A DNA stretch of 64,000 nt from Naegleria gruberi (lineage: Eukaryota): assembly GCA_000004985.1 (NCBI GenBank), contig GG738857.1; one strand, 5' to 3'. Position 1 is the first letter of the stretch. Every line of letters begins with the position of its first letter. The position numbers and the translations under genes were made by a program. Below are positions 1,198 to 62,574 of this stretch, in pieces. The notes under the pieces were generated by a model, which was not told the DNA's origin, made no database searches, and saw only the letters and a program-made list of their open reading frames with translations.

Positions 1198-2531
1198 ATG
1201 AGTATGGATATATTAGTTCGTGATCAAGGTTACTGGAAAGATCCTTCATCATTACTGAATAACAGTCGTTTCATTTCTGTTTACGAAATTCTCAATGAAA
1301 CAGTTTCGAATGACGATTTGAATAATTACAATAACGATAGACACATTCTAATTTCCNNNNNNNNNNNNNNNNNNNNNNNNNNNNNNNNNNNNNNNNNNNN
1401 NNNNNNCGTTATTTTATATGAACATGTTAAACTCAATTATTTCACTCTTCTGAAAAATGTAAAGATTTTACATTTAGAATGGAAAGACCCCAATGTGGAG
1501 GGTTTATAAATTTTGAAAATGTAAGCAATTTAACAAAACTAGAAGCAAAGAGTATTCCCAAATATATATATGCAAAATTCAACTCTTCTCTAAGGGAATT
1601 GCACCTGTCAATGTCATCTTTCAATCTAGACAATAATTTTGATAATTTGAAAAAATTGGAACTCATCAATGTTGGAAATTTATTAAGAGCCACCAGCACT
1701 ACATTTCCCTCCTTGGAATATGCCTATTGTACGAATTGTAATTTTTCCTTTAATGGAATTGAGTTTTTTTCCCAAAGCAAAAATTTGAAGAATTTGATTT
1801 TGAGGTGGTGTGATCTAGGAAAGGTGGAAACAGCCGAATTTCATTGTAGAGAATTGGAAGAATTGGATCTGACTACTGAGAATCCAATTAATCTTGATCT
1901 TTCGACATTGAGAGGACTAAACTTGAAGAAGCTCACAATTTATCCGAAATATATCAATAACCAAATAGATCTTTCCGTAATTGAGCAAATGGCAAGTTTG
2001 GAATATCTGAATTTAGGCGAATATTATGAAAATCTATCATTTTCCCAATTGACCAAATTGAATTATTTAGAATTTCGAAAAATTCGCATTTCAAAAAAGA
2101 ATCTAAAGGTAGAAAATTTGCTTTATGAAAATTTACTAAGAAATTGCGTCATTTACTTTAATAGTATAACCATTGAAGAGCATTGCATGCCATTTCCAAT
2201 TTTATTCGAAAGTGGAACTTTGGAAGGATCATTATTCGAATTAATTGCTTTGAAATTGAGAGAGCTCTGTATTGGTGTGAAAGGTGTGAAATTTGCCTTA
2301 ATGTCAGAGAAATTTATCTATGTTTCGTTTAATAGACAATCAAAGAATAAGCTATATTCGTATCCAAGTTTTATTCTATTCGAAACTGAAAGTCCGAACA
2401 GAATTTTGGAGCACAGAAGAAGTTTGGAAAAGAAACAAGAATTTTTTAATTTTACATCAAGTATCGAATATTTAATGCAACTGAAAAATTATTCTACTGT
2501 ACGAAATGGACGAAAGTGTGAAATTCAGTGA
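1198..2531 (+). CDS. LRR-like (F-box-associated type) protein, paralogue A. The N-terminal part is interrupted by the N-gap, and the two ORF pieces are probably joined by a roughly 42-nt intron near 1494-1535.
   Basis: ORFs 1198-1509 and 1479-2531. The 350-aa part aligns along its length with the ORF at 3346-4497 (FPSLEYAYCTNCNF vs FPSLEYVYCLDCDF), and both end in KCEIQ*. A GTTTAT...AACTAG intron would restore the frame. Confidence 0.5.
1357..1406. other. Assembly gap (N run, about 50 nt)
   Basis: Literal n characters in the sequence. Confidence 0.99.
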
Positions 2532-11313: not shown

Positions 11314-12236
11314 NNNNNNNNNNNNNNNNNNNNNNNNNNNNNNNNNNNNNNNNNNNNNNNNNNNNNNNNNNNNNNNNNNNNNNNNNNNNNNNNNNNNNNN
11401 NNNNNNNNNNNNNNNNNNNNNNNNNNNNNNNNNNNNNNNNNNNNNNNNNNNNNNNNNNNNNNNNNNNNNNNNNNNNNNNNNNNNNNNNNNNNNNNNNNNN
11501 NNNNNNNNNNNNNNNNNNNNNNNNNNNNNNNNNNNNNNNNNNNNNNNNNNNNNNNNNNNNNNNNNNNNNNNNNNNNNNNNNNNNNNNNNNNNNNNNNNNN
11601 NNNNNNNNNNNNNNNNNNNNNNNNNNNNNNNNNNNNNNNNNNNNNNNNNNNNNNNNNNNNNNNNNNNNNNNNNNNNNNNNNNNNNNNNNNNNNNNNNNNN
11701 NNNNNNNNNNNNNNNNNNNNNNNNNNNNNNNNNNNNNNNNNNNNNNNNNNNNNNNNNNNNNNNNNNNNNNNNNNNNNNNNNNNNNNNNNNNNNNNNNNNN
11801 NNNNNNNNNNNNNNNNNNNNNNNNNNNNNNNNNNNNNNNNNNNNNNNNNNNNNNNNNNNNNNNNNNNNNNNNNNNNNNNNNNNNNNNNNNNNNNNNNNNN
11901 NNNNNNNNNNNNNNNNNNNNNNNNNNNNNNNNNNNNNNNNNNNNNNNNNNNNNNNNNNNNNNNNNNNNNNNNNNNNNNNNNNNNNNNNNNNNNNNNNNNN
12001 NNNNNNNNNNNNNNNNNNNNNNNNNNNNNNNNNNNNNNNNNNNNNNNNNNNNNNNNNNNNNNNNNNNNNNNNNNNNNNNNNNNNNNNNNNNNNNNNNNNN
12101 NNNNNNNNNNNNNNNNNNNNNNNNNNNNNNNNNNNNNNNNNNNNNNNNNNNNNNNNNNNNNNNNNNNNNNNNNNNNNNNNNNNNNNNNNNNNNNNNNNNN
12201 NNNNNNNNNNNNNNNNNNNNNNNNNNNNNNNNNNNN
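11314..12236. other. Assembly gap (923 N)
   Basis: n run. The ORF-track entries translated as X across this span are artefacts. Confidence 0.99.
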
Positions 12237-18828: not shown

Positions 18829-19993
18829 NNNNNNNNNNNNNNNNNNNNNNNNNNNNNNNNNNNNNNNNNNNNNNNNNNNNNNNNNNNNNNNNNNNNNNNN
18901 NNNNNNNNNNNNNNNNNNNNNNNNNNNNNNNNNNNNNNNNNNNNNNNNNNNNNNNNNNNNNNNNNNNNNNNNNNNNNNNNNNNNNNNNNNNNNNNNNNNN
19001 NNNNNNNNNNNNNNNNNNNNNNNNNNNNNNNNNNNNNNNNNNNNNNNNNNNNNNNNNNNNNNNNNNNNNNNNNNNNNNNNNNNNNNNNNNNNNNNNNNNN
19101 NNNNNNNNNNNNNNNNNNNNNNNNNNNNNNNNNNNNNNNNNNNNNNNNNNNNNNNNNNNNNNNNNNNNNNNNNNNNNNNNNNNNNNNNNNNNNNNNNNNN
19201 NNNNNNNNNNNNNNNNNNNNNNNNNNNNNNNNNNNNNNNNNNNNNNNNNNNNNNNNNNNNNNNNNNNNNNNNNNNNNNNNNNNNNNNNNNNNNNNNNNNN
19301 NNNNNNNNNNNNNNNNNNNNNNNNNNNNNNNNNNNNNNNNNNNNNNNNNNNNNNNNNNNNNNNNNNNNNNNNNNNNNNNNNNNNNNNNNNNNNNNNNNNN
19401 NNNNNNNNNNNNNNNNNNNNNNNNNNNNNNNNNNNNNNNNNNNNNNNNNNNNNNNNNNNNNNNNNNNNNNNNNNNNNNNNNNNNNNNNNNNNNNNNNNNN
19501 NNNNNNNNNNNNNNNNNNNNNNNNNNNNNNNNNNNNNNNNNNNNNNNNNNNNNNNNNNNNNNNNNNNNNNNNNNNNNNNNNNNNNNNNNNNNNNNNNNNN
19601 NNNNNNNNNNNNNNNNNNNNNNNNNNNNNNNNNNNNNNNNNNNNNNNNNNNNNNNNNNNNNNNNNNNNNNNNNNNNNNNNNNNNNNNNNNNNNNNNNNNN
19701 NNNNNNNNNNNNNNNNNNNNNNNNNNNNNNNNNNNNNNNNNNNNNNNNNNNNNNNNNNNNNNNNNNNNNNNNNNNNNNNNNNNNNNNNNNNNNNNNNNNN
19801 NNNNNNNNNNNNNNNNNNNNNNNNNNNNNNNNNNNNNNNNNNNNNNNNNNNNNNNNNNNNNNNNNNNNNNNNNNNNNNNNNNNNNNNNNNNNNNNNNNNN
19901 NNNNNNNNNNNNNNNNNNNNNNNNNNNNNNNNNNNNNNNNNNNNNNNNNNNNNNNNNNNNNNNNNNNNNNNNNNNNNNNNNNNNNNNNNNNNN
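18829..19993. other. Assembly gap (1165 N)
   Basis: n run. Confidence 0.99.
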
Positions 19994-22122: not shown

Positions 22123-22220
22123 AACTAACATTTTCCAAATGGTAAAGAATAGAAATAATAATTACAGACACGACTATAACAAAAGGAAAAGAGACAGTAG
22201 TAGTTACAACCAAAAACAAT

Positions 22221-24176
22221 ATGATTACCAAAACAGAAGAGGTGGTAAACGGTATGACTATAATAACTCCAACAAAAATGGAGGAAAAAATGGAACCTCA
22301 AATTCCAAGTGACCCCATAATAGGGGGAAGGTTATCCAAATTTTCAAAGGAGTGGGAAAAGATAACCTCCAACAAAACAATATTAGATTGGGTAAAGAAT
22401 GGTCTAACAATCAACCACAACCCCCAACTAATCCATCCACTTCCACAGAGAGAACCAACGAAAGAGAAAGAGAAAATTTGGTTCCAAGAACACATAGAAC
22501 AACTGAAACAACAAGAAATGATTATAGAAGTTTCCAACAAAGAAGAAGTATTAATTCACCCAATCTACCTCATACCAAAGCGAAATTCAACAGAGCCATT
22601 CAGACCAATTTTAGATATGAGAGGGGCAAACTCTGGAATAGAAACGCTTCACTTCAAACAAGAAACGTTGAAGACAATAATGAAATTGTTAAAAAGAGGT
22701 CAATGGTGTGGAAAAATAGATCTGAAATCTGGTTACAATCACCTAAAAATAGAACGCAATTCACAGCATCTTCTAGCCTTCCAATTCAACAACAAAAGGT
22801 ACAAATACACAACTCTTCCATTTGGGCTAAATATCGCACCAAGAACATTTCACAAGATTATGAAAACAGCAATCACTCAATTAAGAAAAGAAAGTATAGT
22901 CATATTCTTCTATCTGGACGATATTTTAATAATAGGAAATTCCTTTCAAGAATGTCAGAAAAACATAGAAAGAACGAGACAATTATTAGAAAGTCTTGGC
23001 TTTGTAATTCAGATGAAAAAGTCAGTACTGTCTCCTGTTCAAGAAATAGATTTTTTAGGATCAACAATCAACACAAAACTAGGAACACTTTGTCTTCAGA
23101 AAGAAAAAATCAACACAGCCCAAAAGATCCTCAAGAAACTAGAATTGAAACATTTAAGTCAACGAAGAATCAAGATCAGAAAGTTCCAATCAATAATAGG
23201 GAAATTGATGTTCCTAAGTACAATAGACAAGAACTTAAGACCTTTTCTAATTCGACCTCAACATCACATTTCAAATATGGTAACAAAGAAAGGATGGTTA
23301 GGAGAAATGCATATCTTACGAAGCGATTTTCAAGATTTAAAGACAATCTCTGCAATCCTAAAACAATCAAAAGGAACAACGTTCGAACTAGAAACAACAT
23401 TACAAATCCTAACAACGGACTCATCGACGACAGGTTTTGGTGGAGTATCCAAAAACCTAATAATGCATGGCAGATGGAGCCATCAAATTCAAGAATACCA
23501 TATCAATTTAAAAGAATTACTAGCAGTCGAACAAATGATATTGGCAATTCAAAAGAACAAGTCTTTTTCAAAAGGAACACAATTTCACGTACGAACAGAC
23601 AATCAAGTAATCATGACTTACCTCAAGAATGGAGGAGGAAAAGTAGATTACTTAGCAACAGTAGCAAGAAGAATATGGAAAATATGTATCAACAACAATT
23701 GGCTAATCAGAAAAGTAACGTACCTTCCTTCCAAAGAAAATTTCTTTGCAGACAAGCTCTCAAGATTGGGAGAATGGGAAATAATCAATTCAACTTTCAA
23801 TCAACTCCAGCAAAAATTTGGTCCTTTCAGCATAGACCAATTTGCAAGCCAAACAAATTGCAAAGTAAGAAGGTTCGGTCAAAGAAACTTCTATCAGGAT
23901 GCTTTTTTGAACAATTGGGAACAGGAGAACAATTATTTGGTTCCTCCCTTAGGCTTAATCCTCCCAACAGTAACACACTTACTAAAAAGCAAAGCAAAGG
24001 CTCTTCTAATCGTTCCAAAATGGGAAAGCGCAGTTTGGTGGCCAGTTCTAATGAAGATAACACAAGAAACATTATTCTTAACGAAAGAGGACATGATCTT
24101 CAATCAAGACATGGAACTATCCAGAAACTCAGAATGGAACTTTGTAGCACTAAAGGTTCAAGCAACCACCTACTAA
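22221..24176 (+). CDS. Element ORF2, reverse transcriptase plus RNase H
   Basis: RT motifs ...LPFGLNIAPRTFHKIM... and YLDDILIIG. An RNase H-like C-terminal part follows. 651 aa. Confidence 0.75.
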   Translation: MITKTEEVVNGMTIITPTKMEEKMEPQIPSDPIIGGRLSKFSKEWEKITSNKTILDWVKNGLTINHNPQLIHPLPQREPTKEKEKIWFQEHIEQLKQQEMIIEVSNKEEVLIHPIYLIPKRNSTEPFRPILDMRGANSGIETLHFKQETLKTIMKLLKRGQWCGKIDLKSGYNHLKIERNSQHLLAFQFNNKRYKYTTLPFGLNIAPRTFHKIMKTAITQLRKESIVIFFYLDDILIIGNSFQECQKNIERTRQLLESLGFVIQMKKSVLSPVQEIDFLGSTINTKLGTLCLQKEKINTAQKILKKLELKHLSQRRIKIRKFQSIIGKLMFLSTIDKNLRPFLIRPQHHISNMVTKKGWLGEMHILRSDFQDLKTISAILKQSKGTTFELETTLQILTTDSSTTGFGGVSKNLIMHGRWSHQIQEYHINLKELLAVEQMILAIQKNKSFSKGTQFHVRTDNQVIMTYLKNGGGKVDYLATVARRIWKICINNNWLIRKVTYLPSKENFFADKLSRLGEWEIINSTFNQLQQKFGPFSIDQFASQTNCKVRRFGQRNFYQDAFLNNWEQENNYLVPPLGLILPTVTHLLKSKAKALLIVPKWESAVWWPVLMKITQETLFLTKEDMIFNQDMELSRNSEWNFVALKVQATTY

Positions 24177-25099
24177 CATTATTCAAAGCAAGAGATGTTA
24201 TCCTCAAATACAAGTTAGCTGATTCGACAATCAGAACATACAGAAACCACGTTAACAAATTTAAAGATTTTTGTTTCTGGTATAACATTGAAAGATGTTG
24301 GAATCTGAATTCCATTTCCCTTTATCTCACAAACATGTTATTGAAAGGCTCAGGTGGGTCAGTGAAACAAGCATGTGCCGCCCTTCAACATGAAACCAAA
24401 TGTTTGGGCATTGTGGTTGATTGGAAAAATTCAATAATTTCCGATATCAGATCATCTACAACAAAGATATGGTCTCTCTTTGATAGAGAAAAACTAATTA
24501 GAGAACCATTTGATTTAGCTAACCTAAAATATTGGTTAGAAAACCCACCAAACATTGACCCTTGGTCATTCAAACTCTATGCTGCAGTAATTGCTGTTGG
24601 TGTTCGTGCATTAATGAGACCTGGAGAGTTAGCGGATTTGTCATTCGGTGATGTGTCTTACAATAAGGATGGTCATTTAGTTTTCACTTTAGGACAAACA
24701 AAAACAGATCAACAAGGAAAAGGTGAAAAAATTACTATTGAACCTTCCTATTCCGAAATATGTCCTGTCAAAATATTCCAAACCTATTATGATCACTGTA
24801 AGCAATTTAAATCTCCTAAGTGCCCATTATTTAGCAACCCTAGATCCAACACATTCTTTAGAACTGCAGATATTTCTAATATAGTGAAATATGTATCACA
24901 ACATAATCCAAACAACACTTCAATTGTCTCTGGACATTCACTTAGAAAAAGAGGTGCTACACATCTTGCAAAATCTGGTTACACATCTTCTCAACTAAAA
25001 GTTGCTGGACGATGGAGATCTGATTGTTACTTAACATACATATCAGAAGAAATCTTACCTTCCTTAGGTACTTCAAATACTTTATTCTCGGGACAATAA
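24134..25099 (+). CDS. Element ORF3, tyrosine recombinase (phage-integrase-like). It overlaps the end of ORF2 in another frame.
   Basis: Catalytic-residue pattern R (ALMRPGELADL), H-x-x-R (GHSLRKRGATHLA) and the nucleophile Tyr region (WRSDCYLTYI). The upstream part of track ORF 22352-25099 is an overlapping-frame artefact. Confidence 0.6.
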   Translation: MELCSTKGSSNHLLTLFKARDVILKYKLADSTIRTYRNHVNKFKDFCFWYNIERCWNLNSISLYLTNMLLKGSGGSVKQACAALQHETKCLGIVVDWKNSIISDIRSSTTKIWSLFDREKLIREPFDLANLKYWLENPPNIDPWSFKLYAAVIAVGVRALMRPGELADLSFGDVSYNKDGHLVFTLGQTKTDQQGKGEKITIEPSYSEICPVKIFQTYYDHCKQFKSPKCPLFSNPRSNTFFRTADISNIVKYVSQHNPNNTSIVSGHSLRKRGATHLAKSGYTSSQLKVAGRWRSDCYLTYISEEILPSLGTSNTLFSGQ

Positions 25100-46507: not shown

Positions 46508-46710
46508 TGTTTTTGTTTTTTATGAAATGAATTGAATTTGCAGGAGTGAAGTTGAAATGGCGCCAAAAGTTTGATTTCATCAGACATCACGTGCTGGCAC
46601 TTCAGGTGATGAAGAAAGGTGAACTGTATTCATGAATAAGGGTTAATTTAAAAAAAAATGCAACCACATCACCTCCCACACCTTGATAGATTATTATTAA
46701 TTGAAAAAAA

Positions 46711-46939
46711 ATGGCCGATCACAAAATGGTCTGCAAATTGGGTTTGTGTTTTGAGATGCGAGATTTAAAATTATTTATTAAATGTGTGATGATTACAGGC
46801 TGATAGGAAATATGTGTTGGAAGCTGTTAAACAAAATGGGTTGGCACTTGAAAATGCCGATGAATCTGGAAGCTGTTAAACAAAATGGATTGGCAATTGA
46901 ATTTGCTGATTCATCATTAAAAAAGATAGAGAAATTGTA
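46711..46939 (+). pseudogene. Disrupted 5' region of DUF4116-kinase copy 1. The mini-exon 1 homologue is out of phase, a DUF4116 repeat unit is truncated, and a poly-A run carries a 1-nt deletion.
   Basis: Compared with copy 2 (59873 onward), this region shows three frame disruptions. The repeat-encoding frame switches from frame 2 to frame 0 and back to frame 2 around 46860 and 46905. Confidence 0.45.
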
Positions 46940-49699
46940 TTGGAATCTGTTAAACAAAATGGATATGCATTTAAATATGCCGATGAGTTATTGAAAAAAG
47001 ATGAAGAGTTTATATTGGAAGTTGTTAAACAAGATGGATTGGCAATTAAACATGCTGATTCATCATTACAAAAAGATAGAGAAATTGTATTGGAAGCTGT
47101 TAAACAAAATGTATATGCACTTAAATATGCAGATTCATCATTGAAAAAAGATAGAGAAATTATATTGAAATCTGTTAAGAAAAATGGATTGACACTTGAA
47201 TTTACTGATTCATCATTGAAGAAAGATAGAGAAATTGTATCGGAAGCTGTTAAACAACATGGATTGGCAATTGAGTTTGCTGATTCATCATTTAAAAAAG
47301 ATAGAGAAATTGTATTGGAAGCTGTTAAGCAAAATGTGTATGCAATTGAATTTGCTGATTCATCATTGAAGAAAGATAGACAATTTGTACTAGAAGCTGT
47401 TACGAAAAATGGATTAGTACTTGAATATGCTGATTCATCATTGAAGAAAGATAGAGAATTTGTATTAGAATCTGTTACGAAAAATGGATATGCATTTCAA
47501 TATGCTGTTTCATCATTTAAAAAAGATAGAGAAATTGTATTGGAAGCTGTTAAACAAAATGGAGCAGCGCTTAAATATGCTGATGAATCAGTTAAGGGAG
47601 ACAGAGAAATTGTATTGGAAGCTGTTAAACAAAATGGATTGGCATTTAAATATATTTATTCATCATTGAAAAAAAATAGAGAAATTATATTGGAAGCTGT
47701 TAAACAAAATGGATCAGCACTTAAACATGCTGATTCATTTTTGAAGAAAGATAGAGAAATTGTATCGGAAGCTGTTAAACAAAATGGATTGGCACTTCAG
47801 TTTGCTGATTCATCATTTAAAAAAGATAGAGAAATTGTATTGGAATCTGTTAAAAAAAATGGATCAGCACTTGAATATGCTGATTCATCATTTAAAAAAG
47901 ATAGAGAATTTATTTATTTGCTATTTAAATTGAACAAAGAAAATGCAAGAAACTTCTCACCATCTATATCCAAAACCATTGAAGAATGCTTAAATATTCA
48001 GAGAAAGCTGTCAAGCAATATAACTGAACAATACTCCAAAATATTTATGGATGAAAAGGATTTATATTATGCTATTGAATTAACAAGTCTCTTTAATCCA
48101 ACACCAAAAGGTACAATATTCAATTTCAATTCTATCTATACACCAATATTTATTGAAAAATTGATTATTTTTCAAATATTGAAACAAATGAACCATTCAG
48201 AATTGTCTAATGATATTATTGCTCTTATTGATTTACAAAGTACCAAAGCTAACTATTATTTATATTGTTTCAGATTGGACAAATTTCTTGAAGATAATCC
48301 CTGTCAATCAACAAGAATGAAAGATTTGAAGAATATTGTGGAACAAGTTGCAACAAACTTTGAAACGTCATTTTATACAAAACAGGAAATTAATGAAATT
48401 ATGATTTTTGCCAACAAGTGGTTTGAAAATGAGCAAACATTTGAAAATTACAAACAAATAATTTGTAAATATAATGAGCTGAGAGGAGATTTATCAAAAG
48501 TATTCAAATCTCTTAATTATTTCTATAATTATTTCAAAAATGATTATGATTTCATTTCAGTATTAGGATATGGAGGTGAAGGTGTTGCATTCAAAGTATT
48601 TCATAAAAGTAGTAAATCATTAAGGGCTTTAAAATTGAAATATGACCCAGAGGAATCTGAAGAATCAACAAAAGAAACCATTAATTTATTGAAAAGAACA
48701 GACATTGAAGGAAAGATCAAATGTTTTGATTGTGAAATTATTCAAAATCATTTATATTCAGTGATGGAACTTGGAGAGGAATCATTATCAAATTACATTT
48801 CAAGAAATAATGAAAGTGAAATTTATAGAAATGGATTCATTATTAAGGAAAAACTAATTGAAATTCTTGATATATTTATCAAAGTATTGAACTCAGTTCA
48901 ATCAATTCATGATCACAATATTTTACACAGAGATTTAGATCCTCAAAATATTGTCAAAGTTCAAGATTTATACAAAATTATTGATTTTGAAACATCAAGA
49001 GTGATCAAGACAGGTAATTCAATTACAATTGCTCGTGGAAAGTTTGCATACATGTCTCCTGAAGTTTCACATGATAATTATTCTGATGATTTATTGAAAA
49101 GTGGTAATGATGAAAAGCTTGCTCACAATGTTGGACAAATTACCATTTCATGTGATATATTTTCATTGGGATGTATTTTGTTGAAATTATTAACCAATTG
49201 TCCTTTGCAACTATGTTCAACATTTCTGAATGATTCAGATGTCTCTAAATATAATGATAATTACTTGTATTTTAGTGGACATGGAAAATATTTCTATACA
49301 GTTGTGACAACAACAGAGGGAGAAATGAAATTACATTATGCAATTGAAAAACTAATCAATGAAACAATTAATCCAGATTTAGGAGTGAATAACATATTGA
49401 TTAGAAGCATTATTAGCATGATTCAAAGAGATTCATCAAAAAGATTGGATTGTTATTCTCACAAGTTAACAATTGAGAATATTTTGAAATTTTTGAAAGG
49501 AGAAATCAAAGATATCACTTTCAATATTGAAAAACAAGTTGGAGAATTGAAGAAAATATCACCATTAAGAAGTTACTCTCAACTTGTAGAGGAAAATACC
49601 AAACTATTAGAAAGAATTAAATTATTGGAAGAGAACTCTTTATTGGAACGAATTAAAATGTTGGAAGAGGAAATAATAAATCTAAAAACAGACCAATAA
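46940..49699 (+). CDS. DUF4116-repeat protein with a C-terminal atypical protein kinase domain, copy 1. The long ORF is intact from the TTG at 46940, but no in-frame upstream ATG is available.
   Basis: About 11 tandem 29-aa DUF4116-type repeats (LEAVKQNGLALxYADSSLKKDREIV). The kinase part has GYGGEGVAFKV, HRDLDPQNIV, DFETSR and YMSPEV, followed by a C-terminal coiled coil. Confidence 0.6.
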   Translation: MESVKQNGYAFKYADELLKKDEEFILEVVKQDGLAIKHADSSLQKDREIVLEAVKQNVYALKYADSSLKKDREIILKSVKKNGLTLEFTDSSLKKDREIVSEAVKQHGLAIEFADSSFKKDREIVLEAVKQNVYAIEFADSSLKKDRQFVLEAVTKNGLVLEYADSSLKKDREFVLESVTKNGYAFQYAVSSFKKDREIVLEAVKQNGAALKYADESVKGDREIVLEAVKQNGLAFKYIYSSLKKNREIILEAVKQNGSALKHADSFLKKDREIVSEAVKQNGLALQFADSSFKKDREIVLESVKKNGSALEYADSSFKKDREFIYLLFKLNKENARNFSPSISKTIEECLNIQRKLSSNITEQYSKIFMDEKDLYYAIELTSLFNPTPKGTIFNFNSIYTPIFIEKLIIFQILKQMNHSELSNDIIALIDLQSTKANYYLYCFRLDKFLEDNPCQSTRMKDLKNIVEQVATNFETSFYTKQEINEIMIFANKWFENEQTFENYKQIICKYNELRGDLSKVFKSLNYFYNYFKNDYDFISVLGYGGEGVAFKVFHKSSKSLRALKLKYDPEESEESTKETINLLKRTDIEGKIKCFDCEIIQNHLYSVMELGEESLSNYISRNNESEIYRNGFIIKEKLIEILDIFIKVLNSVQSIHDHNILHRDLDPQNIVKVQDLYKIIDFETSRVIKTGNSITIARGKFAYMSPEVSHDNYSDDLLKSGNDEKLAHNVGQITISCDIFSLGCILLKLLTNCPLQLCSTFLNDSDVSKYNDNYLYFSGHGKYFYTVVTTTEGEMKLHYAIEKLINETINPDLGVNNILIRSIISMIQRDSSKRLDCYSHKLTIENILKFLKGEIKDITFNIEKQVGELKKISPLRSYSQLVEENTKLLERIKLLEENSLLERIKMLEEEIINLKTDQ

Positions 49700-53513: not shown

Positions 53514-56500
53514 ATGACAAAACTTGTTTCTTGCCTTGCCACGGCCATCAAACTCGGAGTGGTGAGCACGTTTGTGTGCTCTTTTGTTTTGTTTCATATT
53601 TATTTCTTTTTGGAGAGATCTCCACCAGCTAATACAAAGCATTTTGATGATATGAATACTAATCCTTTAAATTTTGCTGATTTGAATTTATTTTCCATTC
53701 ATGATGAGAGTAGTATTGTGAAGGAAGGTTCATCGTCATCACCCGGAAAGAATAGAAGAAGACTTGTTCAACCAAAGAGCTTGAGAAAAATTGCTCTTGA
53801 TGAAATCGGAACTGTAAATTCAACCAAAGTTGTGAATGATGGTATGTAATATTTGTACAATAATTTTCAATTAATAATTAATAATTAACAATAATATAAT
53901 ATACAATGCAATATTCATCAATGAATAACAATAATTTTGGAATACTTGGAAAAATCTTCATCATGTGGATTAACAACAGATGACGAAAAAACATATTATA
54001 CTATTTTCCAAATTCATGGAACTCCTGGATCTAGACGATGGAGGTATCCAGTTGATCATCACTTTGTGAGGACTTTCGGAGGAGACAAAAAGTTGAGAAT
54101 TCTCAGTCTTGATAGACCTGGTATTGGTCAATCTACTCCAATAATATCTAGTATTGACTCGGAAGGTAATCCTGTCTATAATTTGGAACCTTTCAATGTG
54201 GATTATTATGAAGCTAGTGCTTTGGACCTTTTATATGTTGTGAGAAAGTTGAGATTAAAGCACTTTTCACTCTTTGCTTATTCTCAAGGTGCTGCTCATG
54301 CTACAATGCTTTCACACTATTTGGAACAATTAAAGAAGAGAGAACGTGGTGAAAAGGTAACTCATGCTCACTTGAAGAGCACTGAAAGATTCCACAATGA
54401 CTTGATGACCAAGATTTTATTGTCAAAGGATTCCGAAAAGTATTGGACTTTTGAAAATGGAGTTTCAAACTATACATCATCTACTGAATGGTCATGGAAA
54501 GATGTTACCATCGACAGAGTTGTCTTGATGGCACCACAAGGTTTCTATTCAGAAAAGGTCAGACAAGCTCTCTTGAAAGAGCAAGACATGACCATTCCTG
54601 AGCACAAGAGATGGTCTTCAAACCTTCATCAAATTTATTCTTTCCACAATTATCAACCACCACTCGGAACTAATATTGTTCATGCTGTATACAAGATGGT
54701 TTCACAATTGGGATTTATCACTAATATCAAATATTGGGAAGAAAATATGAAATTCATGCTTGATCCTTTGGGAAGAGATTCATTCATTTTCCATGATGAA
54801 GCTACTGGATGGAAGAAGGCTTTTAACAATACCATGATTGATACCTACAGATTTACTACCATGACTTTCCTTGTAGAAGTTTATAATAGTTATTATTTCA
54901 CTGAAAATTATGGACCTAACTTTGATATTTCCTTGAAGAATATTCCAACATGGATTTTGAAAGCTGAGGATGATATTCTTGTTCCAATTGAAGCTTTTAA
55001 TACCTTTGTTGAAAAGGTTTGCACCAATAAGGAAACTTGTAATGTCACTGTTGCTTCCAACACTACCCATTTCCAAATTTTCAAGAATTATTACACACAA
55101 TCTATTCAACACCTTGTGAAGGGAGTTTTTGGAGAAAGTGTCAGCCTTAGAAAGCCAAGAAGAAAGATTATTGTTATTGGTAGTGGTCTTGCTGGCTTGA
55201 CAGCTACTCTCGAATCTGCCTACACCTACGATCAAGATGTCGTTCTCATTGAAAAGGAACCTAGACTTGGAGGAAACAGTGCCAAGGCAACCAGTGGTAT
55301 GAATGCTATCCAAACAACAACACAAAGAAACGTTCTCGTCTTTGATTCATATACTCACTTTTGGAATGATACTATCAAGTCTTTCACAGGAGGAAAGGTC
55401 TTGTCTACCCTCAAGGAAGCTAGAAGAATCATTAGAAATCCAAAGAATAAGAAGAAGGTTGAAGGAGAGGAAAATTTAATTACAGAAAATTCTTGGAGAA
55501 TTTTGGAAACTCTTGTCAAGGATTCCAAGCCAGCCCTCCAATTCTTACAATCATTTGATGTGAAAATGGATGTTGTTTCCCAATGTGGAGGCCACTCAAA
55601 GCCAAGAACTCACAGAAGCATTAACAAGAGTGACAAACCAATTAACATTGGAAGTGATATTATTTCCAAGCTCTCTGCTTTTATTAGAGAAAAATTGGCT
55701 GAGCGTGTTGTCATCAAGACTGAACATCATGCCATTCAATTAATTTCTGAAGAAAATGATCTTGGAGAAACCATTGTCAAGGGTGTCAAGGTTTTGAACA
55801 TTAAGGAAAATACTACTGAAACAATTATGGGAGATTCTATCATTTTGGCAGCTGGTGGTTATGGTCAAGATAGAGATGGTTATTTGAAGCAATTCGCTCC
55901 ACACTCTGTCAATTTACCATCAACTAATGGTTTGTGGGCAACAGGTGATGGTATAAAGATGGCTGTCAGAGATGTAAACGCATCCTTGATTGATATGGGA
56001 GAAATTCAAATTCACCCTACTGCCTTTGTTGATCCAGCCAATCCTACTGCAATGACATTAATTCTCGCTCCAGAATCATTGAGAGGTTATGGTGCTATTA
56101 TTGTCAATCAAGAGGGTAAGAGATTTGTCAATGAATTGGGTACAAGAGATGAAGTCAGTGATGCCATCTTTGAAAATTGTGGAAGGAAGGAAATTATCCT
56201 CACGTTACTGCCTACATGATTATGAATGAATTTGTTATGAAATCATTTGGTGAAAGCTTGACCTCCTTCTATGCCAAGAAGGGTCTCATTCGTAAATATG
56301 AAAACTTTGAAGATTTGTGTCAAAAGGAAGAATTGAACATGTCTGCCAACTTTTGTGCCAACCTCGAAGATACCATTATTGATTATGATTATTCAGTCGA
56401 TTATAGAAGATCAGATCCTAACTATAAGGATTCATTTGGAAAGACAGTTTTCCCATCTAAATTCAATTTGGAAAAGAGTAAGGAAACTACTCCATTCTTT

Positions 56501-56731
56501 GTGGCAAGAATTACACCTGCTGTTCACTACACTCAAGGTGGTCTCTTATTCAACAATAAGGCACAAGTTTTGCGTAGAAAGACTCAAGATACAAACGAAG
56601 TAATTAGAAATCTCTATGCTGCCGGTGAAGTCACTGGTGGATGTCATGGTAAGAATCGTTTGGCAGGTAACAGCTTGTTAGAATGTGTAGTTTTTGGTCG
56701 TATTGCTGCCTCAGAAGCTGCCCAAGAATAA
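53514..56731 (+). CDS. Fusion of an alpha/beta-hydrolase-like domain with a soluble FAD-dependent fumarate reductase (flavocytochrome/OSM1-type). There is a possible 5' signal-anchor exon at 53514-53841 and an apparent frameshift near 56175-56200.
   Basis: Hydrolase part: HGTPGSRRW...[13 protein letters not shown]...[13 protein letters not shown] part: [17 protein letters not shown]...[15 protein letters not shown] ... [34 protein letters not shown]. ORFs 53937-56219 (frame 0) and 56177-56731 (frame 2) overlap within the ggaaggaaggaaatt run. Confidence 0.6.
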
Positions 56732-58033: not shown

Positions 58034-59705
58034 TTATTCGAAAGTTACTATTTCAGCGTTTTGTAAAGTATCTAATAGAAAAGATTTGGCAATTTCGAAA
58101 GGTGTCGCCTCAGCAAACAAACAAGTCAGTACAATCTTGACATTTTGTTTCCATGCGAAAATACTTGCAAAAATTCTTCCCTCCACAAGAATAATCTTGT
58201 CGAAAGTTGTATTCGAAAGTAGATTCGTAATTTCAGTGGTAGAAATTGGTTTCTTTTCTGCAATTTCTTTCATAAAATCAGAAGAATCGTCCAAATCGCA
58301 TTTTGCATTCAATATAAATCGAATAGTTTCGTATTCTCCAATTAACATGCTTTCAATTCTAGTTTTCTTCTCAACAAATGAAGATAGCAAATGTAATTTC
58401 AGAAACTTTCCAATACTAAACACATTTCTTCCATTCAAGTCAGTTGATTCTCCTTTAGGCCATTCCACTTTCGTCCTTTTTGGCAATTCTTGCATTCCAA
58501 GTTGTTTCGTCTCAGGTATATATTGGAAACGAAACTCGACATGAGCTAAACGATCGATAAATAATTTCTCCTCGTAGATTCTTCCAGGTTCCAAATCTTC
58601 TGGAAAGATTGATAATTTCTCAGTTTCGAATGAAACTTTCTTTCCATTGGACGAATCAGTTCCCATTACGGTAATTCCACCATTCCATCCATTTCCTGAA
58701 AAATTGTAATTCCATTCTCCATTCTTACCACTTTCTGCATAGAAAGATCCATGAGAATTCTTGGAATTATTACAAGCTGAAAGATTAGTGACATTTGAAA
58801 GATTGACAACTCTTTCTACCCAAAAATTCATAATTCCATTTGCAACTCTACTTCTCTTTTCCTTAATTCTCAAATCTTTTGCCAATCTTTGCAAAAATGA
58901 TAAAACTTGTGCAAATTCTTGTTGATTTTCATAATCTTTTAAAACTTGTTTACAAAATCTTACAATGGATTGATCGTATTTTACAAATAAATTATGGAAA
59001 ATTTGATTATTCTGAATAGATTGAGTGTAAATCTCCATTTCATATTTGAATTGTTCACTGAAAATTTGAAATTCCATTACAATTTCATGATGATCAATTG
59101 ATTGATCAATAATCAAGTTTAAATCTTGACGATTATTGTAATGTAAAATGCCAATTCGTTCAAAATCATTTTCTCTAAACCAAACTCTTCCCAAATCTTT
59201 ATCAGATTTTTCCATTGTAAAAGTGGAAGGTAGTTCAATTGACCAAGGATAAGTTTTGTAAAGTTTGAAACCTTCTGTAAGAGTTTCAGGTGGATTTACA
59301 ATAGAAAGTGAACATTCTAAATGTAAAACACCTCCTTTATCAAATGGGAGTTCTATGTATTTGCGCAAACCAGGTTTTAATTGGTCAATTGACAATTGGC
59401 AACTTCCAATCAATTTCTAATAAACTTTCCATCAATTTAAACTAAACTAATTGACTTACATTTGATTGAAAACGATTCCAGTCATATAACCGAAACATTA
59501 TCTGCTCATCATTCTGAAGAGATGTAAATTTCACATTCAAATTCCATTCGGGATTCAAAGTCTCCTTGATTACTGACGTTTTGATTGCATCATTTTCCTT
59601 CTCTGATTTTAAATAACAAGTTAAATAGGGATCACTCGTACCAGATCTATCAGCAGCATGAATATTTGTTGCTTTGATGATTTTTAATTGCAATTCAGTT
59701 GACAT
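58034..59705 (-). CDS. N-terminal C2-domain protein of about 550 aa with 2 exons (59705-59460, 59416-58034)
   Basis: MSTELQLKIIKATNIHAADRSGTSDPYLTCYLK...ETLNPEWN...RLYDWNRFQSN|KLIGSCQLSIDQLKPGL... shows C2 beta-strand motifs. Intron of 43 nt, GTAAGT...TTATTAG, phase 0. Confidence 0.6.
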
Positions 59706-59872: not shown

Positions 59873-61305
59873 ATGTCTGAAGATTGGGTTTGTGTTTTGT
59901 GATGCGATTTTATTAATGGGGGTGTGATGACTATCACAAATAATAGGCCGATAGGACATATGTGTTAGAAGCTGTTAAACAACGTGGAAATGCACTTAAA
60001 TATGCCGATGAAGCATTTAAAAAAGATAGAGAAATTGTATTGGAGGCTGTTAAAAAAAACGGATTAATAATTCAATATGCTGATTCATCATTGAAAAGAG
60101 ATAGAGAAATTGTATTGGAAGCTGTTAAACAGCGTGGATATGCAATTCAATATGCTGATTCATTGTTAAAGAAAGATAGAGAAATTGTATTGGAATGTGT
60201 TAAACAAGATGGATTGGCACTTGAATATGTTGATTTATCATTACAAAAAGATAGAGAAATTGTGTTGGCAGCTGTTAAACAAAATGGATTGGCACTTCGA
60301 TATGCTGATTCATCATTGAAAAAAGATAGAGAAATTGCATTGGAATCTGTTAAACAACGTGGATATGCAATTCAATATGCTGATTCGTTGTTAAAGAAAG
60401 ATAGAGAAATTGTATTGGAAGCAGTTAAACAAGATGGATTGGCACTGCAATATGCTTATTTTCAAAATGACAGAGAAATTGTATTGGAAGCTGTTAAGCA
60501 AAATGGATCAGCAGTTGAATACGCTGATTCATCATTGAAAAAAGATAGAGAATTTATATTGGAATCTGTTAAACAACATGGATTGACTCTTAAATATGCT
60601 GATTCATTATTGAAGAAAGATAGAGAAGTTGTTTCGGAAGCTGTTAAACAAGATATATTGGCACTTAAATATGTTGATTCATCATTTAAAAGAGATAGAG
60701 AATTTATATTGGAAGCAGTTAAACAACATTCATTGGCACTTGAATATGCTGATTCATCTTTACAAAGAGATATCGTTTTTACTTATTCACTTTTTAAATT
60801 GAACAAAGAAAATGCAAGAAAGTTCTCACCCTCTATAACCAAAACCATTGAAGAATCCATTAATCTTCAGAGAAAGCTGTCAAGCAATATAATTGAACAA
60901 TACTCCAAAATATTTATGGATGAAAAGGATTTATATTATGCTATTGAATTAACAAGTCTCTTTAATCCAACACCAAAAGGTACAATATTCAATTTCAATT
61001 CTATCTATACACCAATATTTATTGAAAAATTGATTATTTTTCAAATATTGAAACAAATGAACCATTCAGAATTGTCTAATGATATTATTGCTCTTATTGA
61101 TTTACAAAGTACCAAAGCTAACTATTATTTATATTGTTTCAGATTGGACAAATTTCTTGAAGATAATCCCTGTCAATCAACAAGAATGAAAGATTTGAAG
61201 AATATTGTGGAACAAGTTGCAACAAACTTTGAAACGTCATTTTATACAAAACAGGAAATTAATGAAATTATGATTTTTGCCAACAAGTGGTTTGAAAATG
61301 AGTAA
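59873..61305 (+). CDS. DUF4116-repeat + kinase gene, copy 2. Mini-exon 1 (59873-59887, MSEDW), an intron at 59888-59946, and a repeat exon from 59947. The reading frame ends at an in-frame TAA at 61303-61305, where copy 1 has CAA.
   Basis: Donor GTTTGT and acceptor AATAATAG, phase 0. About 10 DUF4116-type repeats. The downstream sequence stays collinear with copy 1 beyond the TAA. Confidence 0.55.
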
Positions 61306-62574
61306 ACATTTGAAAATTACAAACAAATAATTTGTAAATATAACGAGCTGAGAGGAGATTTATCAAAAGTATTCAAATCTCTCAATTATTTCTATAATTA
61401 TTTCAAAAATGATTATGATTTCATTTCAGTATTAGGATATGGAGGTGAAGGTGTTGCATTCAAAGTATTTCATAAAAGTAGTAAATCATTAAGGGCATTA
61501 AAATTAAAATATGACCCAGAGGAATCTGAAGAATCAACAAAAGAAACCATTAATTTATTGAACAGAACAGACATTGAAGGAAAGATCAAATGTTTTGATT
61601 GTGAAATTATTCAAAATCATTTATATTCAGTGATGGAACTTGGAGAGGAATCATTATCAAATTACATTTCAAGAAATAATGAAAGTGAAATTTATAGAAA
61701 TGGATTCATTAAGAAGGAAAAGTTGATTGAAATTCTTGAAATATTTATCAAAGTATTGAACTCAGTTCAATCAATTCATGATCACAATATTTTACACAGA
61801 GATTTAGATCCTCAAAATATTGTCAAAGTTCAAGATTTATACAAAATTATTGATTTTGAAACATCAAGAGTTATCAAGACAGGTAATTCAATTACAATAG
61901 CTCGTGGAAAGTTTGCATACATGTCTCCTGAAGTTTCACATGATAATTATTCTGATGATTTATTGAAAAGTGGTGATGATGAAAAACTTGCTCACAATGT
62001 TGGACAAATTACCATTTCATGTGATATATTTTCATTGGGATGTATTTTATTGAAATTATTAACAAATTGTCCATTACAACTATGTTCAACATTTGTTAAT
62101 GATTCAGATGTCTCAAAATATAATGACAAGTATCCATATTTTAGTGGTCATGGAAAATATTTCTATACAGTTGTAACAACAACAGAGGGAGAAATGAAAT
62201 TACATTATGCAATTGAAAAACTAATCAATGAAACGATTAATCCAGATTTAGGAGTGAATAACATATTAATTAGAAGCATTATTAGCATGATTCAAAGAGA
62301 TTCATCAAAAAGATTGGATTGTTATTCTCACAAGTTAACAATTGAGAATATTTTGAAATTTTTGAAAGGTGAAATCAAAGATATCACTTTGAATATTGAA
62401 AAACAAGTTGGAGAATTGAAGAAAATCTCACCATTAAGAAGTTACTCTCAACTTGCTGAAGAAAATAACAAAATTACAGATGAAAAAACCAAACTTTCGG
62501 ATGAAAATAGCAACCTGTTAGAAAGAATTAAAATGTTGGAAGAGGAAATAAGAAAACTCACACAAACCATATGA
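61306..62574 (+). CDS. Kinase-domain portion of copy 2, in frame with and downstream of the TAA. It is either a separated ORF, the tail of a pseudogene, or part of a readthrough product.
   Basis: Near-identical to copy 1 at 48430-49650 (GYGGEGVAFKV, HRDLDPQNIV, DFETSR). The C-terminal coiled coil differs (LAEENNKITDEKTKLSDENSNLLERIKMLEEEIRKLTQTI). Confidence 0.5.
   Translation, partial: TFENYKQIICKYNELRGDLSKVFKSLNYFYNYFKNDYDFISVLGYGGEGVAFKVFHKSSKSLRALKLKYDPEESEESTKETINLLNRTDIEGKIKCFDCEIIQNHLYSVMELGEESLSNYISRNNESEIYRNGFIKKEKLIEILEIFIKVLNSVQSIHDHNILHRDLDPQNIVKVQDLYKIIDFETSRVIKTGNSITIARGKFAYMSPEVSHDNYSDDLLKSGDDEKLAHNVGQITISCDIFSLGCILLKLLTNCPLQLCSTFVNDSDVSKYNDKYPYFSGHGKYFYTVVTTTEGEMKLHYAIEKLINETINPDLGVNNILIRSIISMIQRDSSKRLDCYSHKLTIENILKFLKGEIKDITLNIEKQVGELKKISPLRSYSQLAEENNKITDEKTKLSDENSNLLERIKMLEEEIRKLTQTI

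What the first reader, a model, noticed from the sequence alone, without database searches (positions are those of the whole stretch)
46711..49699. Two near-identical DUF4116-repeat + kinase genes 10 kb apart, each with a different ORF-disrupting lesion
Copy 1 (46.7-49.7 kb) and copy 2 (59.9-62.6 kb) are almost identical at nucleotide level over the 3' ~1.7 kb (linker plus kinase). They diverge in the repeat array and in the last 40 codons. Copy 2 has a perfect mini-exon 1 and intron but carries TAA at 61303 where copy 1 has CAA, which separates the repeat domain from the kinase domain. Copy 1 has an intact repeat-to-kinase ORF, but its 5' end has three frame disruptions. One of them is a 1-nt loss in an A7 homopolymer. 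Possible explanations are reciprocal pseudogenisation after recent duplication, ongoing gene conversion, or homopolymer/base-call errors in a draft assembly. DUF4116 arrays fused to kinases are themselves poorly characterised.
Basis: seen in the sequence. Interest (0 to 1): 0.6.

Follow-up and report, generated by a model that had tools for sequence, protein, structure and literature searches.

The report
Two damaged Naegleria DUF4116-kinase paralogs
Two neighbouring copies of a Naegleria gruberi repeat-plus-kinase gene each carry reading-frame-breaking changes in the reference sequence, which the public annotation hides behind invented introns; this looks like ordinary gene-family turnover or sequencing error, not a new mechanism.

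Summary
The window is Naegleria gruberi NEG-M. Copy 1 (46711-49699) and copy 2 (59873-62574) both encode a mini-exon, a short intron, a 75-nt DUF4116 repeat array, a helical linker, a TTK-like kinase and a coiled-coil tail. Over 1,664 nt of linker plus kinase they align without gaps at 97.3% identity. Copy 2 has GAG-TAA-ACA (61303) where copy 1 has GAG-CAA-ACA. Copy 1 has an extra G in exon 1 (46729), a 26-nt deletion (46866|46867) and a 1-nt loss (about 46918-46924). The GenBank models XP_002679510 and XP_002679513 avoid these lesions with ad hoc introns.

- This is not a recent segmental duplication. Flanking DNA and neighbouring genes are unrelated, and the repeat arrays are about 82% identical.
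- The high 3' identity comes from purifying selection (dN/dS 0.13 overall, 0.08 downstream of the TAA) and gene conversion. The evidence is a 409-nt identical tract (P about 1e-4) and a mosaic pattern among six paralogs.
- The lesions are therefore very young mutations or null alleles, or they are assembly errors. No reads or transcripts were reachable, so I could not decide between these.

This is ordinary biology and mainly an annotation caveat. Interest is low.

The parts
46711..46741 (+). Copy 1 exon 1 (ATG 46711, second in-frame ATG 46726). An extra G at 46729, relative to copy 2 and the paralogs, leaves the exon in phase 1.
46742..46798 (+). Copy 1 canonical 57-nt intron (GTTTGT...ACAG), homologous to the copy 2 intron. 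Both splice sites are intact.
46799..46924 (+). Copy 1 start of exon 2, with damaged repeat units a (46802-46866) and b (46867-46924). There is a 26-nt deletion at 46866|46867 and a 1-nt loss in TT(N)AAAAAA at about 46918-46924. The GenBank model XP_002679510 treats 46742-46925 as one 184-nt intron with an AAG acceptor.
46925..47899 (+). Copy 1: 13 intact 75-nt DUF4116 units (25 aa each, DREIVLEAVKQNGxALxYADSSLKK).
47900..48544 (+). Copy 1 helical linker with no Pfam family. It contains the CAA codon at 48434-48436 that is TAA in copy 2.
48025..48433 (+). 409-nt tract identical to 60894-61302 (inferred gene-conversion tract). The C/T difference that makes the stop is the first mismatch at its 3' edge.
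48545..49587 (+). Copy 1 protein kinase domain (Pfam-matched part 48545-49207) and C-lobe extension. Motifs: GYGGEG, ALK, HRDLDPQN, DFE, SPE.
49588..49699 (+). Copy 1 coiled-coil tail and stop codon (TAA 49697-49699). It diverges from copy 2 by indels.
59873..59887 (+). Copy 2 mini-exon 1 (ATG TCT GAA GAT TGG), phase 0.
59888..59946 (+). Copy 2 59-nt intron (GTTTGT...ATAG).
59947..60768 (+). Copy 2 start of exon 2 and 11 DUF4116 units. Unit 7 is 69 nt, an in-frame 6-nt loss.
61303..61305 (+). In-frame TAA (GAG TAA ACA) in the copy 2 linker, where copy 1 has CAA and the paralogs have Q or K. The truncated product would be 457 aa.
60980..61429 (+). The 450-nt in-frame 'intron' of GenBank model XP_002679513 (NAEGRDRAFT_65322). 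It removes 150 codons (GTIFNF...NYDFIS), including the TAA. The same sequence is coding in copy 1 and all paralogs.
61306..62574 (+). Copy 2 rest of the linker, kinase domain (Pfam 61414-62076), coiled-coil tail and stop (TGA 62572-62574). The first in-frame Met lies after the ATP-binding Lys, so no kinase can be made from this part on its own.

Best explanation
Copy 1 and copy 2 belong to a Naegleria gruberi-specific family of about a dozen genes. At least five of them sit on this 573-kb scaffold. Each gene encodes a DUF4116 alpha-solenoid array, a helical linker, a divergent TTK-like kinase and a coiled coil.

The family evolves in concert. Ectopic gene conversion and purifying selection keep the linker and kinase nearly identical between dispersed copies, while the flanks and the repeat arrays drift. 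Against that background both copies in the window carry very young disabling mutations.
- Copy 2 has a single C-to-T nonsense change in the linker, possibly only one allele of this heterozygous strain. It cuts the kinase off from the repeats.
- Copy 1 has three small indels confined to the first 200 nt. With canonical splicing they stop translation after 11 codons.

Both are therefore nascent unprocessed pseudogenes or null alleles. They could still be repaired by conversion from intact paralogs. The reference annotation conceals the damage with ad hoc introns.

Shown: the anatomy, the lesions as they appear in the sequence, the constraint, the conversion signal and the annotation patches. Inferred: that the lesions exist in the organism, that they are young rather than tolerated, and the biochemical role (solenoid as binding platform, coiled coil as dimeriser for the kinase).
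For: - Organism and models.
- Lesions.
- Not a recent segmental duplication: homology is limited to the gene body and the neighbouring genes are unrelated.
- Constraint: dN/dS is 0.13 overall and 0.084 downstream of the TAA. Copy 2 has no private residue in its linker or kinase, against 6-15 in four other close paralogs and 9 in copy 1.
- Conversion: the 409-nt identical run has P about 1e-4, and 238 of 435 site pairs are incompatible. dS varies from 0.03 to 0.30 by segment.
- TAA is the normal terminator: it ends 14 of 19 long ORFs in the window, and ORFs of up to 1,454 codons lack it. The TAA-A context is a strong stop by general knowledge.
- The 26-nt deletion does not look like a base-calling or repeat-collapse artefact. 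It is not a whole 75-nt unit and its junction has no long identity.
- The copy 2 rescue 'intron' removes 150 codons that are coding and conserved in every paralog. It also removes the predicted helical linker and the start of the first kinase strand.
- The copy 1 rescue intron needs a weak AAG acceptor, although the canonical ACAG acceptor upstream is intact.
- A third paralog model, NAEGRDRAFT_65328, contains LKKIEKL|EIVLES. This is the +1-frame reading of the same LKKDRE motif, which suggests recurrent lesions in this family.
Against: - No read-level or transcript data could be reached, so the reality of the lesions is unproven.
- The window is draft quality. It has three N gaps, and a fumarate-reductase-like gene shows an apparent 1-nt frameshift at 56174-56219. 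Single-base errors are therefore plausible here.
- Copy 1 shows three indels but no excess substitutions in the damaged 200 nt. That ratio suits sequencing error better than neutral decay.
- The three copy 1 lesions are clustered (scan P about 0.013) upstream of an open 2.76-kb ORF. This could mean the downstream part is still expressed and selected, which would favour the rescue-splicing rival.
- The four-gamete test used amino-acid sites, so homoplasy inflates it somewhat.
Confidence: 0.55

Rival explanations
1. Assembly or base-call errors. The TAA and the two 1-nt indels, and conceivably the 26-nt gap, are artefacts of the 2010 draft Sanger assembly. Both genes would then be intact canonical DUF4116-kinase genes.
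For: - Neither copy shows any decay: dN/dS 0.08-0.13, and no private residues in the copy 2 linker or kinase.
- Repairing the three indels restores a perfect N-terminus.
- Indels occur without accompanying substitutions.
- The same window has N gaps and another apparent 1-nt frameshift in a conserved enzyme gene.
- Two lesions lie at short homopolymers.
Against: - A 26-nt deletion that is not a whole repeat unit is not a typical base-calling or collapse error.
- Even if both 1-nt indels are errors, the 26-nt loss alone still breaks the copy 1 frame.
- From general knowledge, Sanger consensus substitution errors are rare, so one landing on a CAA codon to create a stop is a low-prior event.
- A third paralog model shows a similar frameshift signature, which fits a real mutational hotspot equally well.
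Confidence: 0.22
2. The GenBank models are right and both genes are functional through unusual splicing. Copy 1 would have turned its two damaged repeats into intron sequence (a 184-nt intron, 46742-46925). Copy 2 would splice out 450 nt (60980-61429) that contain the stop.
For: - Both rescue introns have GT...AG ends and keep the frame.
- The three copy 1 lesions all fall inside the proposed intron, while the following 2.76 kb stays open (scan P about 0.013). This is what relaxed constraint on an intronised segment would produce.
Against: - Gene modellers pick any frame-preserving GT...AG, so the models are not evidence, and no EST or RNA support was found.
- The copy 1 canonical ACAG acceptor is intact and closer than the weak AAG.
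- The copy 2 'intron' is 99.8% identical to the copy 1 exon, is coding in every paralog, and removes a predicted folded helical linker plus the first kinase strand.
- The same GT and AG are present in copy 1, where the model does not splice them.
Confidence: 0.13
3. Reciprocal decay of a recent tandem or segmental duplication. In this view the high identity reflects how young the duplicate is.
For: 97.3% identity over 1.66 kb, with the copies only 10 kb apart.
Against: - Identity ends at the stop codon and just upstream of the ATG, and the flanking genes differ.
- The arrays are 82% identical, have different unit numbers (15 versus 11) and show no unit orthology.
- dS is heterogeneous, and each copy shares segments with different third paralogs.
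Confidence: 0.05
4. The TAA is decoded, either by readthrough or by an altered genetic code, or copy 2 is a deliberate split into a repeat-only protein and a kinase-only protein.
For: The frame stays open on both sides of the single stop.
Against: - TAA terminates most long ORFs in the window.
- The TAA-A context is not a known leaky context (general knowledge).
- No paralog has a stop at this position.
- The first Met after the stop lies beyond the glycine loop and the catalytic Lys, so no active kinase could start there.
Confidence: 0.03

Closest known systems
Young unprocessed (duplicated) pseudogenes or null alleles in multigene families that evolve by gene conversion (textbook examples from general knowledge: CYP21A2/CYP21A1P, globin pseudogenes)
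   Same: Dispersed paralogs with homology restricted to the gene body, identity tracts and mosaic relationships between copies, and a few disabling point lesions in otherwise pristine copies.
   Different: No relaxation of constraint is measurable yet (dN/dS about 0.1). The lesions are unverified at read level. Whether either copy is truly silent is unknown.
DUF4116 repeat proteins (Pfam PF13475)
   Same: 12 and 10 Pfam stretches with E-values of 7e-200 and 2e-179, and a 25-aa unit encoded by a 75-nt tandem repeat. The family was modelled as an alpha-solenoid in PMC8078820.
   Different: Most family members found are repeat-only, or are fused to other domains, in bacteria (including Parachlamydiaceae, Rhabdochlamydiaceae and Mycoplasmopsis) and in metagenomes. 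Here the array is fused to a eukaryotic protein kinase.
TTK/Mps1 dual-specificity kinases
   Same: Best solved-structure sequence match (E 1.8e-12, aligned across the kinase core, including the long insert before the SLGCIL helix). One paralog is named 'TTK family protein kinase' in GenBank.
   Different: Identity is only about 20-25%. The structure search gives a generic kinase fold, with CDK2 and Pho85 on top. The catalytic loop reads HRDLDPQN (Asp where Ser/Thr kinases have Lys), with DFE instead of DFG. There is no evidence for a mitotic-checkpoint role.
Solenoid-repeat plus kinase signalling proteins (LRR-, ankyrin- or TPR-kinase fusions such as ROCO/LRRK; general knowledge)
   Same: The same architectural logic: an N-terminal repeat solenoid, a linker, a kinase and an oligomerising tail.
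   Different: The repeat type is different and there is no GTPase module. The analogy is inferred and was not tested.

Membership tests
DUF4116 (PF13475) repeat family | Multiple matches to the 49-residue Pfam profile above the gathering score | tested here: met
   647 bits with 12 stretches (copy 1) and 582 bits with 10 stretches (copy 2), against a cutoff of 24.9
Eukaryotic protein kinase (PF00069) | Pfam Pkinase match above the gathering score | tested here: met
   84 and 88 bits against a cutoff of 31.7. The AF2 model has a kinase fold, Foldseek probability 1.0.
Eukaryotic protein kinase (PF00069) | Canonical catalytic residues: glycine loop, VAIK Lys, HRD Asp, catalytic-loop Lys and Asn, DFG Asp | tested here: inconclusive
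   GYGGEG, ALK, HRD, the Asn and the DFx Asp are present. The catalytic-loop Lys is Asp (HRDLDPQN) and DFG is DFE in most of the close paralogs. Activity cannot be judged from sequence.
TTK/Mps1 kinase family | Orthology to TTK (reciprocal best hits or phylogenetic placement) | not tested
   Only a weak top hit to TTK chains in the PDB (E 1.8e-12). No kinome phylogeny was run.
Unprocessed pseudogene | ORF-disrupting lesion relative to intact paralogs | tested here: met
   TAA at 61303, and +1, -26 and -1 indels in 46729-46924
Unprocessed pseudogene | Relaxed selective constraint (dN/dS approaching 1, private degenerative changes) | tested here: not met
   dN/dS 0.13 overall and 0.084 downstream of the stop. 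Copy 2 has no private residue in its linker or kinase. Only a very young pseudogene or null allele remains possible.
Unprocessed pseudogene | Lesions present in the organism, and no full-length product | not testable with these tools
   No reads, ESTs, RNA-seq or proteomics for these loci could be reached
Interlocus gene conversion / concerted evolution | Identity tracts longer than expected from overall divergence | tested here: met
   A 409-nt run with 45 differences in 1,664 nt. It was matched or exceeded in 0.011% of 200,000 permutations.
Interlocus gene conversion / concerted evolution | Phylogenetic incompatibility (mosaicism) among paralogs | tested here: met
   238 of 435 pairs of informative amino-acid sites fail the four-gamete test. 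Copy 1 and copy 2 each share segments alternately with NAEGRDRAFT_65330, 65328 and 65349.
Recent segmental duplication | Homology extends into the intergenic flanks | tested here: not met
   blastn and global alignment lose homology at the stop codon and about 25 nt upstream of the ATG. The flanking genes are unrelated.

The most novel reading that the evidence does not exclude
Copy 1 may be a live example of exon-to-intron conversion. After a frameshift in the mini-exon, splicing would have moved from the canonical ACAG acceptor to an AAG acceptor 127 nt downstream. The first two DUF4116 repeats would then be intronic and free to collect indels, while the other 13 repeats and the kinase stay under selection. 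On this reading the clustering of all three lesions inside the annotated 184-nt intron reflects function and is not an annotation artefact.
Probability: 0.1. Interest if true: 0.45.

Novelty: new member of a known kind. Interest (0 to 1): 0.2.

Why it matters
The value is mainly practical. Two GenBank/RefSeq proteins, XP_002679510 and XP_002679513 (NAEGRDRAFT_65322), and probably NAEGRDRAFT_65328 as well, owe their 'intact' status to introns invented to step over lesions. One of those introns deletes 150 conserved codons. These models feed UniProt, EukProt and kinome counts.

Biologically, the locus is a clear small example of concerted evolution in a lineage-specific solenoid-kinase family of a free-living amoeba. 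It also adds to the few data on DUF4116, a repeat that is abundant in amoeba-associated bacteria and barely studied. Nothing found here points to a new mechanism.

Tried and rejected
1. Independent N. gruberi sequence. Exact-product look-ups for a neighbouring gene and for the GenBank models found nothing. A search of 5.8 billion proteins with the linker plus kinase returned only the NEG-M reference proteins and no run-assembled or transcript-derived sequences. The lesions therefore could not be checked against reads.

2. Expression evidence. No paper in the library cites these accessions. The supplements of two N. gruberi omics papers held nothing for them. A kinetochore preprint does not mention Mps1/TTK or DUF4116.

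3. Paralog DNA for a nucleotide-level conversion test was not retrievable, so I used the protein models instead.

4. Alternative genetic code or readthrough was rejected, because TAA ends 14 of 19 long ORFs.

5. Rescue of copy 1 by other start codons or splice sites.
- The upstream ATG at 46658 restores the ancestral exon-1 frame, but translation then stops at the 26-nt deletion.
- The -26 and -1 indels sum to -27, but the 57-nt shifted stretch between them contains stops.
- Only the acceptors at 46925|46926 (AAG) and 46931|46932 (GAG) give an open frame.

6. Co-duplication of the divergently transcribed upstream neighbours (both contain C2 domains) was rejected. They share no similarity.

7. 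The structure search of the AF2 model gave only a generic kinase fold and no assignment for the linker.
Full report
**Identity of the window.** A protein search with the long copy 1 ORF returned Naegleria gruberi NEG-M proteins at 100% identity, all on a 573,072-bp scaffold. Copy 1 corresponds to EFC46766 / XP_002679510 ('serine-threonine kinase', 934 aa). Copy 2 corresponds to EFC46769 / XP_002679513 (NAEGRDRAFT_65322, 730 aa). Three more close paralogs lie on the same scaffold: NAEGRDRAFT_65328, 65330 and 65349. Another, XP_002671661 ('TTK family protein kinase'), lies on a 304-kb scaffold. At E <= 1e-20, the linker plus kinase finds only ten proteins, all from N. gruberi. The N. lovaniensis DUF4116-kinases are far more distant. 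This is therefore a species-level expansion. Only two copies are in the window.

**Anatomy.** Both genes have the same plan.
- A mini-exon.
- A short intron with an unusual but conserved GTTTGT donor.
- A tandem array of 75-nt units, each encoding 25-aa DUF4116 repeats. TRF reports 13.9 and 10.9 copies. Pfam E-values are 7e-200 and 2e-179.
- A linker of about 215 aa with no Pfam family.
- A protein-kinase domain (Pfam 84-88 bits).
- A coiled-coil tail.

An AlphaFold2 model of the copy 1 linker, kinase and tail has mean pLDDT 73. It shows a helical linker (helices at residues 82-212), a kinase fold and a long terminal helix. Foldseek sees only a generic kinase fold. By sequence the nearest solved kinase is TTK/Mps1, weakly (E 1.8e-12).

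**Check of the observation.** The block 47924-49587 aligns with 60793-62456 without gaps: 45 substitutions in 1,664 nt, or 97.3% identity. The C/T difference at 48434/61303 turns GAG-CAA-ACA into GAG-TAA-ACA. It is the only internal stop in copy 2. The copy 2 5' end is canonical: ATG 59873, exon 59873-59887, intron 59888-59946, giving MSEDW|ADRTYVLEAVKQ. This matches the paralog N-termini MNINEW|ADRKYVLEAVKQ and MNKNEW|ADRKYVLKAVKQ.

Copy 1 carries three lesions.
- An extra G at 46729, so both ATGs (46711 and 46726) end the exon in phase 1. The intact canonical acceptor at 46798|46799 then gives MADHKMVCKLG-stop.
- A 26-nt deletion across the junction of repeat units a and b (46866|46867).
- A 1-nt loss in TT(N)AAAAAA near 46918-46924.

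T3 to T2, or loss of a G, fits the sister units at least as well. Reversing the three indels yields a flawless canonical N-terminus.

**How the public annotation deals with the lesions.**
- XP_002679510 joins exon 1 to an AAG acceptor at 46925|46926 (MADHKMVCKL|DREIVLESVK). This makes 46742-46925 a 184-nt intron that swallows all the damage.
- XP_002679513 removes 60980-61429, an in-frame 450-nt GT...AG segment holding the TAA (PTPK|VLGYGGEG).

That 450-nt segment is coding in copy 1 and in all paralogs. In the model it spans the folded linker and the first kinase strand. I regard this intron as an annotation patch. The copy 1 intron is less absurd, but it requires skipping an intact and closer ACAG acceptor.

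The model for NAEGRDRAFT_65328 contains LKKIEKL|EIVLES. LKKIEKL is exactly the +1-frame reading of the LKKDRE motif, as seen in the copy 1 shifted ORF. A third paralog therefore probably has the same kind of lesion and patch. This is inferred from the protein sequence alone.

**Age and mode of the duplication.** Homology ends at the stop codons and about 25 nt upstream of the ATGs. The neighbouring genes differ, and the two divergently transcribed upstream genes share nothing. The arrays have 15 and 11 units, are 82% identical on the best diagonal, and show no unit-to-unit orthology. This is not a recent segmental duplication.

Synonymous divergence differs by segment: 0.03 in the linker, 0.12 in the kinase and 0.30 in the arrays. 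A 409-nt identical run is expected in only 0.011% of permutations. In an alignment of six close paralogs, copy 1 and copy 2 side alternately with different third genes. Examples are EECLNIQ with 65330 versus EESINLQ with 65328, and GFIIKEKLIEILD with 65328 versus GFIKKEKLIEILE with 65349. Overall 238 of 435 pairs of informative sites fail the four-gamete test. These are amino-acid sites, so some homoplasy is included, but the signal for interlocus gene conversion is strong.

**State of the two genes.** dN/dS between the copies is 0.13, and 0.084 for the 1.15 kb downstream of the TAA. Copy 2 has no private residue in its linker or kinase. Four other close paralogs have 6-15 private residues in total, and copy 1 has 9. 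The first in-frame Met after the TAA lies beyond the glycine loop and the catalytic Lys, so the kinase cannot be made separately. TAA is the standard terminator here. The TAA is therefore either extremely young (or one allele of a strain reported to be heterozygous; Naegleria is described as mainly a heterozygous diploid in PMC9928731), or it is a sequence error.

In copy 1 all three lesions fall within 200 nt of a 2,989-nt gene (scan P about 0.013). The damaged units show no excess substitutions. Three readings fit this:
- very recent damage;
- conversion keeping the body of the gene fresh while its 5' edge escapes;
- errors in the two 1-nt indels;
- continued expression through the downstream acceptor.

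The 26-nt deletion is unlikely to be an artefact, and it breaks the frame on its own.

**Calibration of the error hypothesis.** The window has three N gaps. A fumarate-reductase-like gene is split by an apparent 1-nt frameshift between 56174 and 56219. The joined translation aligns continuously with yeast fumarate reductase 5GLG, which leaves no room for an intron. Single-base errors, or real frameshifts, are therefore not rare in this scaffold. This keeps the artefact explanation alive at roughly one in five.

**Verdict.** The best reading (about 0.55) is that these are two barely damaged members of a concertedly evolving, lineage-specific DUF4116-kinase family: nascent pseudogenes or null alleles whose damage is hidden by annotation patches. 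The rivals are assembly error (about 0.22), genuine rescue splicing (about 0.13), recent duplication with reciprocal decay (about 0.05) and decoding of the stop (about 0.03). Nothing here departs from known kinds of genome evolution. The useful outputs are the annotation correction and a compact example of gene conversion. Read mapping and RT-PCR across the four sites would settle the question.

Noticed in passing
window 53937-56731 (+), break at 56174-56219: A gene fusing an alpha/beta-hydrolase domain to a fumarate-reductase-like domain is split into two overlapping ORFs by an apparent 1-nt frameshift in GGAAGGAAGGAAATT. The joined translation (...[10 protein letters not shown]|[15 protein letters not shown]...) aligns continuously with yeast fumarate reductase 5GLG, so no intron fits. 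It is either an assembly indel or a real frameshift.
   Followed up: partly
window 1357-1406, 11314-12236, 18829-19993: Three runs of N (2,138 nt in total) show that the scaffold is draft quality.
   Followed up: no
window 22146-25099 (+): Two long ORFs (651 and 915 aa) in different frames on the same strand overlap over about 1.8 kb, in a region of strong AT skew. By eye the first looks like a reverse transcriptase/RNase H and the end of the second like a tyrosine recombinase, which suggests a DIRS-like retroelement. No domain search was run.
   Followed up: no
window 48980-49060 and 61850-61930 (kinase catalytic loop and DFx), and most paralogs in the alignment: Most of the family has HRDLDPQN, with Asp where Ser/Thr kinases have the catalytic-loop Lys, and DFE instead of DFG. 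The domain is nevertheless under strong purifying selection (dN/dS about 0.09). This may be an atypical or pseudo-kinase mechanism.
   Followed up: partly
paralog NAEGRDRAFT_65328 (P0003), outside the window: Its GenBank model contains ADSILKKIEKL|EIVLESVKQDG. LKKIEKL is the +1-frame translation of the LKKDRE repeat motif. This implies another 1-nt loss at the same A/T-rich site, patched by a model intron of probably one repeat unit (75 nt).
   Followed up: partly
window 46658-46741: An upstream ATG at 46658 is in frame with the ancestral exon-1 reading (…KWSANW|ADRKYVLEAVKQ), with no stop before the donor. It would neutralise the extra-G lesion, but translation then stops at the 26-nt deletion. 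The -26 and -1 indels sum to -27, so the frame returns after a 57-nt shifted stretch that contains stops.
   Followed up: yes
hits (not in the window): Long DUF4116 arrays are common in amoeba-associated or host-associated bacteria (a Rhabdochlamydiaceae symbiont of Dictyostelium, Parachlamydiaceae, Mycoplasmopsis) and in many unassigned metagenomic contigs. Several of those contigs also carry the DUF4116 + Pkinase architecture. This hints at exchange between amoebae and their symbionts.
   Followed up: no
window 59442-59705 and 58034-59413 (-): A C2-domain gene transcribed divergently from copy 2 has a 43-nt GTAAGT...TTAG intron (about 59408-59450). It gives a local example of the usual N. 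gruberi splice signals, against which the GTTTGT donor of the DUF4116-kinase genes looks atypical but conserved.
   Followed up: partly
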